36,317 nt of DNA. It comes from a virus (taxonomy: Duplodnaviria; Heunggongvirae; Uroviricota; Caudoviricetes). The notes beneath the pieces are model-generated. The model was not told where the DNA came from. It saw only the letters and a list, made by a program, of their open reading frames with translations, and ran no database searches. Positions 32,163-33,845 of the stretch are shown here, piece by piece; the first letter of the stretch is position 1, and each line of letters opens with the position of its first letter. The position numbers were made by a program, and so were the translations under genes. The stretch is taken from IMG/VR virus record IMGVR_UViG_2617270990_000004; one strand, 5' to 3'.

Positions 32163-32746
32163 TGGCATTCAGAATGAGTGAACAAGCACGGACCATAAAA
32201 ATTTATAATCTGCTGGCCGGAACTAATGAATTTATTGGTGAAGGTGACGCATATATTCCGCCTCATACAGGTCTGCCAGCAAACAGTACCGATATTGCAC
32301 CACCAGATATTCCTGCTGGCTTTGTGGCTGTTTTCAACAGTGATGAGTCATCGTGGCATCTCTTTGAAGACCATCGGGGTAAAACGGTTTATGACGTAGC
32401 GTCAGGGGACGAGTTATTTATTTCTGAACTCGGTCCGTTACCGGAAAATGTTACCTGGTTATCGCCGGAAGGGGAGTTTCAGAAGTGGAACGGCACAGCC
32501 TGGGTGAAGGATACGGAAGCAGAAAAACTGTTCCGGATCCGGGAGGCGGAAGAAACAAAAAACAACCTGATGCAGGTAGCCAGTGAGCATATTGCGCCGC
32601 TTCAGGATGCTGCAGATCTGGAAATTGCAACGGAGGAAGAAACCTCATTGCTGGAAGCCTGGAAAAAGTATCGGGTATTGCTGAACCGTGTTGATACATC
32701 AACAGCACCTGATATTGAGTGGCCTGCAAATCCTGTCAGGGAGTAA
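32162..32746 (+). CDS. tfa: tail fibre assembly protein Tfa
   Basis: 194 aa; ATG overlaps the stf stop (TAATG); C-terminus ...[22 protein letters not shown]. Confidence 0.9.
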
Positions 32747-32795
32747 TCATTGGGATTATGCCGCAGCACGTCTTAAGCAAGAACGTGCTGCGGTT
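32582..32795 (+). repeat. direct repeat copy 1 (tfa 3' end plus terminator hairpin), about 214 bp
   Basis: Near-identical to 33631-33845 on visual alignment, including the downstream GCCGCAG...CTGCGG hairpin. Confidence 0.85.
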
Positions 32796-32800
32796 GGATG

Positions 32801-33469
32801 CTATTTTTTCCCTGAAGCGGAAAACATTACTACAGTACCTTGAACCTTGGTTTTAACATTCTCGAAATGCTCTGAGAGTATATGTGTTAAGCCTTCTTCG
32901 GAATCTTTTGTGTTTGAAAAGATGCCTTTCTGATTGTAAATGCGCATCAGTTTTTGACCGAAGCTATTGTGCACAACTCCATCGCCAAGAATTGTGGCTC
33001 CGTATAGAGTTCCATCGTCAGTTAAGGCCTGCGCCGCATTGCGTATTACACAGCTTTTTGTAGATATATTTCCAGGCAGGCAGTGAAGAAGGTAAAACAT
33101 GGAAATGGAATCAAATTGACCATGTAACGCCGCGGGATAAGGTTCAAAAACATCATGGCTAATTTTATGTTTAATTTTTGATTCCCCAGCCCTTGTAGAT
33201 GCCGCGTTCAGGCTAGCTTCGTTCAAATCCATTAAAGATATCAGACTACTCTCAGGTACGTGAGTAAGGTAAAACCCAGTTCCAACACCAATATCCAGAT
33301 GGTTGTTACCTACATGTTCCAGAAAGTGTGGAAGAAGGTGTTCCTTTGTAGGACATCCCCATGCAAGCCGATTTGATACTCCCAAAACCCACCAGTCATA
33401 AAGCTTTAGGGTAAGTGGTGTGTAAATTTTAGCCCCATCATCTGTGTTTTTTTTCATTGATTTCACCAT
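32801..33469 (-). CDS. class I SAM-dependent methyltransferase (moron gene), target unknown
   Basis: 222 aa with Rossmann motif I (HLDIGVGTGFYL). The segment is markedly AT-rich compared with the flanking tail genes. Confidence 0.75.
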   Translation of the reverse strand: MVKSMKKNTDDGAKIYTPLTLKLYDWWVLGVSNRLAWGCPTKEHLLPHFLEHVGNNHLDIGVGTGFYLTHVPESSLISLMDLNEASLNAASTRAGESKIKHKISHDVFEPYPAALHGQFDSISMFYLLHCLPGNISTKSCVIRNAAQALTDDGTLYGATILGDGVVHNSFGQKLMRIYNQKGIFSNTKDSEEGLTHILSEHFENVKTKVQGTVVMFSASGKK

Positions 33470-33525
33470 GTTATAGTTTTATTTGTGAATTAAATCAATT
33501 ATGGCGATGAATTACAAGGGGTTAA

Positions 33526-33795
33526 ATGCTGCCGCAGCATAGCGATATTGAAATAGCCTGGTATGCTTCGATACAGCAGGAGCCGAATGGCTGGAAGACC
33601 GTCACCACACAGTTCTACATCCAGGAATTCAGTGAGTATATTGCGCCACTGCAGGATGCTGTAGATCTGGAAATCGCAACGGAGGAAGAAAGATCGTTGC
33701 TGGAGGCATGGAATAAATATCGGGTATTGTTGAATCGTGTTGATACATCAACTGCACCTGATATTGAGTGGCCTGCAAATCCTGTCAGGGAGTAA
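33526..33795 (+). pseudogene. tail fibre assembly (tfa) C-terminal fragment
   Basis: The C-terminal roughly 55 residues ([51 protein letters not shown]) nearly match Tfa at 32162..32746. The N-terminal 34 residues are unrelated and there is no full-length ORF. Confidence 0.6.
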
Positions 33796-33845
33796 TCATT
33801 GGGATTATGCCGCAGACACGTCGTATGCAGGAACGTGCTGCGGTT
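33631..33845 (+). repeat. direct repeat copy 2 (tfa 3' end plus terminator hairpin)
   Basis: See copy 1. Confidence 0.85.

What the first reader, a model, noticed from the sequence alone, without database searches (positions are those of the whole stretch)
32582..33845. Low-GC methyltransferase moron inserted between a complete tfa and a duplicated tfa 3' end
A 222-aa class I SAM-dependent methyltransferase (motif HLDIGVGTGFYL) sits on the opposite strand to the tail genes, in a segment that is visibly more AT-rich than the surrounding phage DNA. It is bracketed by two direct copies, about 214 bp each, of the tfa 3' end plus terminator hairpin. That architecture looks like a cassette exchanged by homologous recombination at tail-fibre-assembly genes, leaving a Tfa C-terminal remnant. 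Being antisense to late transcription, it is likely expressed from its own promoter in the lysogen. Its substrate (DNA, RNA, protein or small molecule) cannot be told from sequence, so a lysogenic-conversion or phage-exclusion role is only a hypothesis.
Basis: partly seen in the sequence, partly recalled or inferred. Interest (0 to 1): 0.65.

Follow-up and report, generated by a model that had tools for sequence, protein, structure and literature searches.

The report
Intact ybcY methyltransferase moron between tfa repeats
This is the intact form of ybcY, an uncharacterised methyltransferase gene long catalogued in E. coli K-12 and carried as extra cargo next to phage tail-fibre genes; it sits between two copies of a tail-fibre-assembly gene end, is present in about 70% of E. 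coli genomes, and what it methylates is still unknown.

Summary
A 222-codon ORF (32801-33469, minus strand; probable true start at Met5, 218 aa) encodes a class I SAM-dependent methyltransferase. Its GC content is 41%, against 53.5% for the window. It lies between two direct copies (226/227 nt, about 90% identical) of the tfa 3' end plus hairpin.

It is not new. It is the intact version of the K-12 DLP12 pseudogene ybcY, with the same tfaD-ybcY-tfaX layout. The gene occurs at 95% identity or more in 3832 of 5426 complete E. coli genomes and in several isolated lambdoid phages.

The recombination idea is supported. Two strains carry the same ompW-integrated prophage without the cassette, and their single tfa 3' end is a chimera of repeat 1 and repeat 2. 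Elsewhere a constant core (32761-33750) is joined to varied flanks at different points inside the tfa ends.

The protein belongs to a wide, uncharacterised, stand-alone family with no gene neighbour conserved across genera. Its fold and sequence relatives are small-molecule and lipid methyltransferases. DNA-methyltransferase motifs are absent. The substrate remains unknown, and expression in the lysogen is inferred, not shown.

Verdict: real, ordinary and already catalogued. Modest interest as a very common enzyme of unknown function.

The parts
32162..32746 (+). Complete lambda-type tail fibre assembly gene tfa (194 aa)
   Evidence: ORF. Pfam Caudo_TAP E=2e-44. About 91.5% nt identity to lambda orf-194.
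32570..32795 (+). Direct repeat copy 1: tfa 3' end plus hairpin
   Evidence: 226 nt, about 90% identical to copy 2.
32760..32794 (.). G+C-rich hairpin between the convergent tfa and methyltransferase genes. On the + strand it is followed by UUGGAUGCUAUUUUUU; on the - strand there is no U tract.
   Evidence: -28.5 kcal/mol (z = -4.1) on the + strand and -25.4 kcal/mol (z = -5.3) on the - strand. Terminator function is inferred, not shown.
32801..33469 (-). YbcY-family class I SAM-dependent methyltransferase (222-codon ORF; probable start ATG 33457, 218 aa)
   Evidence: PHROG 2132 E=4e-157. 99.0% nt identity to the K-12 ybcY pseudogene.
33498..33525 (-). Promoter-like site TTAACC-16-CATAAT upstream of the methyltransferase. 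A second candidate, TTGATT-18-TATAAC, lies at 33470-33499 (read from the sequence).
   Evidence: consensus scan, no excess over shuffles. Conserved in K-12, 2G7b, O157 and 536; the -10 hexamer is TATAAT in strain 536. K-12 SELEX promoter and H-NS site, PMC3946193.
33526..33795 (+). Tfa C-terminal remnant ORF (89 aa; counterpart of K-12 tfaX). Residues 27-89 are the conserved Tfa C-terminal domain. Residues 1-26 are found only next to this methyltransferase.
   Evidence: Pfam Caudo_TAP positions 75-130 of 131. PHROG 2341 full length. tblastn against phages. RefSeq marks it as a partial pseudogene.
33619..33845 (+). Direct repeat copy 2: tfa 3' end plus hairpin (core stem about 33809-33845)
33892..34161 (+). 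Second tail-fibre-related remnant (DUF4376, internal stop)
   Evidence: RefSeq annotation of identical DNA. PHROG 7703 and 1141 (tail fibre protein) hits.
34390..34508 (+). Right prophage/chromosome junction: 3' fragment of ompW. The chromosome continues into yciE, yciF and yciG.
   Evidence: blastn against K-12 gives 100% identity from window 34390 onward. Annotation.

Best explanation
The segment is a phage 'moron' unit made of a hairpin, the ybcY-family methyltransferase gene (antisense to the late operon), its own promoter region and a Tfa C-terminal remnant (tfaX).

The unit sits at the end of the tail-fibre module of a lambdoid prophage integrated in ompW. Because conserved tfa 3' ends bracket it, homologous recombination between tfa genes of different phages, or between the two flanking copies, moves it into new tail-fibre contexts or deletes it. 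That explains why one nearly invariant gene is found behind many different tfa and stf alleles and in the decayed DLP12 prophage of most E. coli.

The product is a single-domain, stand-alone SAM-dependent methyltransferase of a wide, uncharacterised bacterial family. It most likely methylates a small molecule or lipid. Carboxyl or other O-/N-methylation is the best guess. It does not methylate DNA.

Shown here: gene identity, fold, repeat architecture, presence/absence polymorphism with chimeric junctions, distribution, and lack of conserved partners.

Inferred: transcription from its own sigma-70 promoter, probably under H-NS repression; enzymatic activity; substrate class; benefit to the lysogen.
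For: Identity:
- The K-12 DLP12 layout is tfaD, ybcY' (opposite strand), tfaX.
- The K-12 copy is 99.0% identical.
- The PhiR26_1 record labels the gene YbcY.

Distribution:
- 3832 of 5426 complete E. coli genomes carry it, all at 95% identity or more, with up to 4 copies per genome.
- It occurs in isolated or induced phages 2G7b, ev243, PhiR26_1, PhiR49_1, Turner and Kati.

Recombination:
- Strains 190693 and EFF60 carry the same ompW prophage without the cassette.
- Their tfa end matches repeat 1 up to about 32686 and repeat 2 from about 32704 onward, including the extra A in the hairpin and the downstream flank.
- The constant core is 32761-33750. Left junctions fall at about 32575, 32615-32652 and 32755-32774. 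Right junctions fall at about 33555, 33750, 33773 and 33845.

Constraint:
- Copies in different prophages differ by 0-11 nt.
- dN/dS against the strain 536 copy is 0.07-0.19, on small counts.
- The gene stays intact in strain 536, where DLP12 has decayed to int', tfa', the methyltransferase and ompT.
- 62 columns are invariant across 24 homologues at 56-90% identity.

Enzyme class:
- AlphaFold2 pLDDT 90.
- The best PDB sequence hit is JHAMT, E=7e-6.
- Distant family members weakly hit BioC (37 of 88) and UbiE (26 of 88).
- hhalign against CysG gives 97% probability.

Stand-alone status:
- 527 species-level loci were found, and 72 non-E. coli neighbourhoods were examined.
- No neighbour is shared across more than 4 genera.

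Promoter.
Against: - No expression, activity or phenotype data exist for any family member.
- The K-12 copy is a pseudogene, and its promoter region binds H-NS, so the gene may be silent.
- The family is mildly basic (median pI 8.9). CmoA, CmoM, METTL6 and PrmC appear among the weak hits. An RNA or protein substrate is therefore not excluded.
- The direction of the polymorphism (loss versus gain) cannot be told from the chimeric junction alone.
- The promoter-like matches are no more frequent than in shuffled sequence.
Confidence: 0.72

Rival explanations
1. The enzyme is an RNA (tRNA or rRNA) or protein methyltransferase that modifies a host macromolecule.
Against: These hits are fewer and weaker than those to the small-molecule enzymes JHAMT, BioC, UbiE, PmtA and BelI/CysG. 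The protein is a single 218-aa domain with no extra RNA- or protein-binding domain.
Confidence: 0.18
2. The gene is a decaying passenger with no current function. It persists only because it is embedded between recombinogenic tfa ends and in the near-fixed DLP12 remnant.
For: The K-12 copy is a pseudogene. H-NS binds its promoter region. A ybcY deletion had no effect in the one phenotype test found, Hha toxicity (PMC2408971). The flanks are littered with tail-fibre gene debris.
Against: All six E. coli and phage copies examined here are intact 669-nt ORFs, and RefSeq annotates the gene as a methyltransferase CDS in every listed genome except K-12. The 90%-identity cluster holds 6589 member sequences. 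Differences are mostly synonymous. The gene stays intact where the rest of the prophage has decayed. The family is conserved at 50-68% identity across many genera as a chromosomal gene.
Confidence: 0.08
3. It is an orphan DNA methyltransferase that protects phage or host DNA from restriction, or sets an epigenetic mark.
For: Phage-borne methyltransferases are often DNA methyltransferases (general knowledge). PADLOC gave one very weak hit to the MADS mad2 component (E=0.009, 12.9 bits).
Confidence: 0.02

Closest known systems
ybcY (b0562) and tfaX (b0563) of the cryptic prophage DLP12, E. coli K-12
   Same: Same gene (99.0% nt identity). Same arrangement: tfa, then the methyltransferase on the opposite strand, then a tfa remnant. 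The divergent promoter spacer is conserved.
   Different: The K-12 copy is a frameshifted pseudogene in a decayed prophage at argU, next to appY and ompT. Here the gene is intact, lies in a lambdoid prophage integrated in ompW that still encodes J, lom, stf and tfa, and has no hydrolase/ompT module downstream.
Phage morons in the sense of Juhala/Hendrix (for example lambda lom and bor)
   Same: It is an extra gene absent from close relatives at the same position. Its base composition differs from the phage. It is bounded by a hairpin and a promoter-like region, and it is oriented independently of the late operon.
   Different: Expression from the prophage has not been shown. The gene travels with a fixed tfa remnant, and conserved tfa coding sequence appears to serve as its recombination handle.
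BelI and CysG, metal-dependent carboxyl O-methyltransferases of belactosin and cystargolide biosynthesis (PDB 9FCE, 9FCD; PMC11408123)
   Different: Only about 20% identity. The second His is Cys130 here. The Asp and the substrate-binding Arg are not aligned. BelI and CysG sit in biosynthetic clusters, whereas this family is stand-alone.
JHAMT, BioC and UbiE/UbiG-type small-molecule methyltransferases
   Same: These are the best sequence-level relatives with known function. JHAMT scores E=7e-6 and UbiG 1e-3 against the family profile. BioC and UbiE models weakly hit 37 and 26 of 88 family members.
   Different: All scores are far below the family cut-offs. The window protein itself hits no NCBIfam model at E<=1e-3.
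STM1638 of Salmonella enterica (putative SAM-dependent methyltransferase next to rydC and cybB)
   Same: It is a chromosomal homologue. P0098 has 56% identity, and its locus has cybB immediately downstream, as described for STM1638. It is equally uncharacterised.
   Different: It is not prophage-borne and has no tfa flanks. Equating P0098 with STM1638 rests on synteny only.

Membership tests
Class I (Rossmann-fold) SAM-dependent methyltransferases | Motif I glycine-rich loop (xGxGxG) after strand 1 | tested here: met
   D59-I-G-V-G-T-G65 is invariant in 24 homologues. G61, G63 and G65 are near-invariant in 88 family members.
Class I (Rossmann-fold) SAM-dependent methyltransferases | Acidic residue at the end of strand 2 (binds the SAM ribose), and the seven-stranded alpha/beta fold | tested here: met
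Class I (Rossmann-fold) SAM-dependent methyltransferases | Binds SAM and transfers a methyl group | not testable with these tools
   Needs purified protein.
YbcY family (PHROG 2132; K-12 b0562) | Full-length sequence match to the family, and orthology with K-12 ybcY | tested here: met
   PHROG 2132 E=4e-157 over residues 5-222. 99.0% nt identity to ybcY. Identical to WP_000240999.1.
YbcY family (PHROG 2132; K-12 b0562) | tfa - ybcY (opposite strand) - tfaX synteny | tested here: met
   One search compared.
Phage moron | Absent from closely related phages at the same position | tested here: met
   Lambda, HK629 and HK630 match the tfa gene and its hairpin but not the methyltransferase segment. 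Cassette-free alleles of the same prophage exist.
Phage moron | Base composition different from the surrounding phage genes | tested here: met
   41.1% GC against 53.5% for the window.
Phage moron | Own promoter and terminator, and expressed from the repressed prophage | tested here: inconclusive
   There is a promoter-like site and a hairpin, and SELEX evidence in K-12. No transcript data exist. H-NS binding suggests repression.
DNA methyltransferases (N6A/N4C or C5) | Catalytic motif (D/N/S)PP(Y/F/W), or PCQ plus ENV, together with a target-recognition domain | tested here: not met
   None of these motifs is in the 222-aa sequence. The protein is a single compact domain. No DNA methyltransferase is among the best structural matches.
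BelI/CysG metal-dependent carboxyl O-methyltransferases | His-His-Asp metal-binding motif and the substrate-binding Arg22 (PMC11408123) | tested here: not met
   hhalign aligns H129-C130 with the His-His pair. The second ligand is Cys, and the Asp and Arg are not aligned.
BioC (TIGR02072) and UbiE (TIGR01934) | Score above the curated NCBIfam cut-off | tested here: not met
   The window protein hits neither BioC nor UbiE, and has no NCBIfam hit at E<=1e-3. Its only hits, at E<=0.01, are CpaM (18 bits against a cut-off of 180), RquA and PmtA.

The most novel reading that the evidence does not exclude
The YbcY family could be an undescribed kind of stand-alone methyltransferase. It might use an invariant His129-Cys130 pair, possibly with Asp189, in the place where BelI and CysG bind their catalytic metal. 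Phages would spread it, and E. coli would retain it in decayed prophages next to ompT, because methylating a host or environmental small molecule or membrane lipid changes the lysogen's fitness, stress tolerance or phage sensitivity.
Probability: 0.15. Interest if true: 0.55.

Novelty: already known. Interest (0 to 1): 0.25.

Why it matters
The locus itself is textbook K-12 annotation (ybcY/tfaX), so nothing new is discovered by finding it.

What remains worth knowing is the function. A near-invariant enzyme with no known substrate sits in about 70% of E. coli genomes. It is carried by active lambdoid phages, including prophages of O104:H4 and O157:H7 strains. It survives intact where the rest of its prophage has decayed. 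Identifying its substrate would assign a function to a large, unnamed methyltransferase family (at least 1745 clusters at 50% identity).

The locus is also a clean, datable example of how conserved tfa 3' ends act as recombination handles that shuffle cargo between tail-fibre modules.

Tried and rejected
- Gene-neighbourhood inference of substrate. I fetched 80 species-level loci and clustered the neighbours of 72 non-E. coli loci. No partner is conserved across genera. Pfam scans of the 141 nearest neighbours show only lineage-specific synteny: an ECH-family gene in 13 loci, which I attribute to the recurrent downstream neighbour seen in Pseudomonas, and PAPS_reduct/DUF3440 in 6.
- Esterase pairing. 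Alpha/beta-hydrolase, COesterase or GDSL genes lie near the methyltransferase in some phages, Erwinia, Enterobacter and Yersinia. I considered a methyl-ester cycle. No esterase family was enriched among nearest neighbours, so I dropped it.
- Anti-phage defence role. PADLOC gave only a 12.9-bit hit.
- Literature. Searches for ybcY, tfaX, STM1638 and phage names found no functional study.
- AFDB50 fold search. The library was unavailable.
- Metal-site analogy with CysG. The His-His alignment is suggestive, but the Asp and Arg do not align. It stays a lead only.
- Origin of the first 26 residues of the remnant ORF. The listed matches covering those residues are all in records that also carry the methyltransferase; none is a full-length tfa (sampled listing).
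- Known RNA in the region. Rfam gives IS009 on both tfa ends and a sub-threshold CssrB hit on the hairpin. These reflect the repeated tfa sequence and are not evidence for a separate element.

Full report
OBSERVATION

The window's right end carries lambda-type tail genes: J (24742-28215), lom (28283-28882), stf (29034-32162) and tfa (32162-32746). On the opposite strand, 32801-33469 encodes a 222-aa protein. It matches the Pfam methyltransferase domains Methyltransf_12, _23, _25 and _11 above their cut-offs.

The gene has 41.1% GC (GC3 35.9%). The window has 53.5% and the tail genes 54-57%.

Direct repeats of 226/227 nt lie at 32570-32795 and 33619-33845. They are about 90% identical with one 1-nt indel. 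Each comprises the last 177 nt of a tfa reading frame, the stop codon and a G+C-rich hairpin. The second copy is the 3' part of an 89-codon ORF (33526-33795) that matches only the C-terminal part of the Pfam Caudo_TAP model.

Two refinements apply. First, 21 of 23 aligned homologues and the PHROG 2132 profile start at Met5, so the true product is probably 218 aa, starting at ATG 33457. Second, the 10% divergence shows that the two copies come from different tfa alleles and are not a recent duplication.

WHAT IT IS

The DNA of 32100-34200 is 99.7-100% identical to prophages in E. coli O104:H4 and other strains. There the gene is annotated as a class I SAM-dependent methyltransferase (WP_000240999.1), flanked by a complete and a partial tail fibre assembly gene.

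The GenBank record of phage PhiR26_1 labels the gene YbcY. In E. coli K-12 the cryptic prophage DLP12 has the same layout: tfaD, ybcY (a pseudogene on the opposite strand) and tfaX. The K-12 copy is 99.0% identical in nucleotide sequence. The finding is thus the intact form of a gene catalogued in K-12 for decades.

The methyltransferase gene alone occurs in 3832 of 5426 complete E. coli genomes. It is always at least 95% identical, with up to four copies per genome. It also occurs in isolated or induced lambdoid phages: 2G7b, ev243, PhiR26_1, PhiR49_1, Turner and Kati.

In those phages, in an O157:H7 prophage and in DLP12 it belongs to a cargo region that continues with an alpha/beta hydrolase gene and ompT. 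In the window that region is missing. The tfa remnant is followed by a second tail-fibre-related remnant (DUF4376, 33892-34161) and then by the prophage/chromosome junction inside ompW at about 34390.

HOW THE CASSETTE MOVES

I built an "empty-site" query by joining the sequence up to the end of repeat 1 to the sequence after repeat 2. Two complete genomes match it in one piece: strain 190693 (human blood, UK) and strain EFF60 (swine manure effluent, China). Both carry the same ompW-integrated prophage with tfa, the hairpin and the DUF4376 remnant, but no methyltransferase.

In an alignment with the two repeats, their single tfa end follows repeat 1 up to about window 32686. From about 32704 onward it follows repeat 2, including the extra A in the hairpin and everything downstream. 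A chimeric junction inside the repeat is what homologous recombination predicts, either between the flanking copies (loss) or with a donor carrying the cassette (gain). The direction cannot be decided from the junction alone.

Across E. coli a constant core (about 32761-33750: hairpin, gene, promoter region, 5' part of the remnant) is joined to diverse flanks. Left break points lie at about 32575, 32615-32652 and 32755-32774. Right break points lie at about 33555, 33750, 33773 and 33845. Nearly all fall inside the tfa-derived sequence.

The first 26 codons of the remnant ORF appeared only in records that also carry this methyltransferase (sampled listing), and the remnant has its own PHROG (2341). 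The remnant therefore travels with the gene. It was not created by insertion into the neighbouring tfa.

The picture of a simple duplication of the adjacent tfa end is not.

IS THE GENE FUNCTIONAL?

Copies from six prophages or phages are all intact and differ by 0-11 nt. Against the most divergent copy (UPEC 536) the differences are mostly synonymous, with dN/dS 0.07-0.19 on small counts.

In strain 536 the DLP12 prophage has decayed to fragments of int and tfa, yet the methyltransferase and ompT remain intact. The same ybcY-ompT context is reported for CFT073, UTI89 and J96 (PMC6854850).

Homologues at 50-68% identity are ordinary chromosomal genes in Enterobacter, Salmonella, Yersinia, Erwinia, Pantoea, Proteus, Pasteurellaceae, Pseudomonas, Xanthomonadales and Oxalobacteraceae. 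More distant ones occur in Francisella and Pirellulaceae. An exhaustive profile search finds 1745 clusters (50% identity) at E<=1e-3 and 418 at E<=1e-30. Matches are usually full-length, in proteins mostly of about 215-235 aa. Sixty-two columns are invariant among 24 homologues. Five are invariant and about 25 near-invariant among 88 members at 31-56% identity.

This is the signature of a working enzyme family, not of junk. The K-12 pseudogene is the exception.

WHAT IT MIGHT DO

The AlphaFold2 model is confident (pLDDT 90) and shows a single-domain class I methyltransferase.

- Foldseek's best PDB matches are a phosphatidylethanolamine N-methyltransferase, juvenile-hormone acid methyltransferase (JHAMT), SgvM, polyketide C-methyltransferase domains, phosphoethanolamine methyltransferases and CysG.
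- By sequence profile the nearest solved structures are JHAMT (E=7e-6) and UbiG (1e-3).
- Distant family members weakly hit the BioC and UbiE models.
- hhalign against CysG gives 97% probability. It aligns the invariant His129-Cys130 with the His-His of the CysG/BelI His-His-Asp calcium site. The Asp and the substrate-binding Arg do not align.

Several of the nearest characterised relatives (JHAMT, BioC, BelI/CysG) form carboxyl methyl esters. That makes carboxyl O-methylation of a small acid the best single guess, but the structural scores are a near-tie across the generic fold.

DNA methylation is effectively excluded. The sequence has no DPPY-type or PCQ/ENV motifs and no target-recognition domain, and no DNA methyltransferase appears among the top matches.

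The family is mildly basic (median pI 8.9). That is compatible with membrane association and does not exclude RNA or protein substrates.

Neighbourhood analysis of 72 non-E. coli loci found no partner conserved across genera. The enzyme therefore acts on its own and is not part of a dedicated pathway. I found no functional study of ybcY, of the Salmonella gene STM1638 (which appears to be its homologue) or of the phage copies. PADLOC gives no meaningful defence-system hit.

EXPRESSION

The gene converges on tfa across a strong hairpin (-28.5 kcal/mol on the late-operon strand, followed by a U-rich stretch). The hairpin plausibly ends late transcription before it runs antisense into the gene. 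That is inference.

Upstream, TTAACC-16-CATAAT (33525-33498, minus strand) is conserved in all contexts examined, and the -10 hexamer is a perfect TATAAT in strain 536. Genomic SELEX in K-12 placed a constitutive sigma-70 promoter (TTGATT-17-TATAAC for ybcY) and an H-NS site in the ybcY/tfaX spacer (PMC3946193).

An own promoter is therefore likely. Whether it fires in lysogens is unknown, and H-NS silencing of this AT-rich segment is a real possibility.

VERDICT

The recombination interpretation is supported and sharpened. The functional speculation remains open.

The locus is an already known, widely distributed cargo gene of unknown function, so novelty is low. Its residual interest is as a very common, conserved, uncharacterised enzyme whose substrate could be found with straightforward experiments.

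Noticed in passing
window 32505-32703 (+) and 33549-33752 (+): Rfam family RF02111 'IS009', a candidate sRNA, matches both tfa 3' ends. The scores are 224.5 bits (above the gathering score of 117) and 112.5 bits (just below it). The family appears to model the coding 3' end of tfa genes and not a separate RNA.
   Followed up: partly
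window 34390-36317: The prophage's right junction lies inside ompW (the 3' fragment is 34390-34508). It is followed by chromosomal yciE, yciF and yciG, and then by an IS1 insA ORF at 35979. Related strains have trpA at that point.
   Followed up: partly
window 33892-34161 (+): A DUF4376/tail-fibre-like remnant with an internal stop follows the tfa remnant. This is a third layer of tail-fibre gene debris between the functional tfa and the prophage end.
   Followed up: partly
L019 2331-5710 (E. coli O157:H7 F7508): In this O157:H7 prophage a manganese-catalase gene and paralogues of yciE, yciF and yciG lie between tfa and the methyltransferase, all on the methyltransferase strand. In the window the chromosomal yciEFG genes lie just outside the prophage end.
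   Followed up: no
L018 4349-7234 (E. coli 536): The DLP12 prophage at the tRNA-Arg gene has decayed to an integrase fragment, a tfa fragment, an intact methyltransferase and ompT. There the similarity to the window ends at about 33555, so the tfa remnant is gone but the promoter region is kept.
   Followed up: partly
L057, L061-L064, L066, L071, L072, L079, L080, L085, L090, L098 (Pseudomonas), about 130 nt downstream of the homologue: These 13 loci have a gene of about 229 aa on the same strand, about 130 nt downstream of the methyltransferase homologue. Thirteen of the scanned nearest neighbours match the enoyl-CoA hydratase/isomerase family ECH_1. I infer they are the same genes. The pairing was not seen in other genera.
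   Followed up: partly
L002 6383-7777, L003 6916-8400, L019 8706-10190, L020 5255-6739: A gene for a 464-495-aa protein, followed by ompT, lies downstream of the cassette in several phages and prophages. It matches Pfam Abhydrolase_1 plus the TAP-like domain in 2G7b and is annotated as an alpha/beta hydrolase in the O157:H7 record. Together these form a larger cargo region that the window's prophage lacks.
   Followed up: no
window 29300-30450 (within stf): The side tail fibre gene contains a long Ala/Ser-rich low-complexity stretch (GC about 0.6, AT skew up to 0.5). The length of stf varies between otherwise similar prophages: 2835, 3027, 3129 and 3171 nt.
   Followed up: no
YbcY residues 24-25, 37, 39, 57, 129-130, 189: Some conserved residues across 88 diverse family members lie outside the SAM-binding motifs: Y24, D25, W37, C39, H57, H129, C130 and D189. 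H129-C130 aligns with the His-His of the CysG/BelI metal site.
   Followed up: partly
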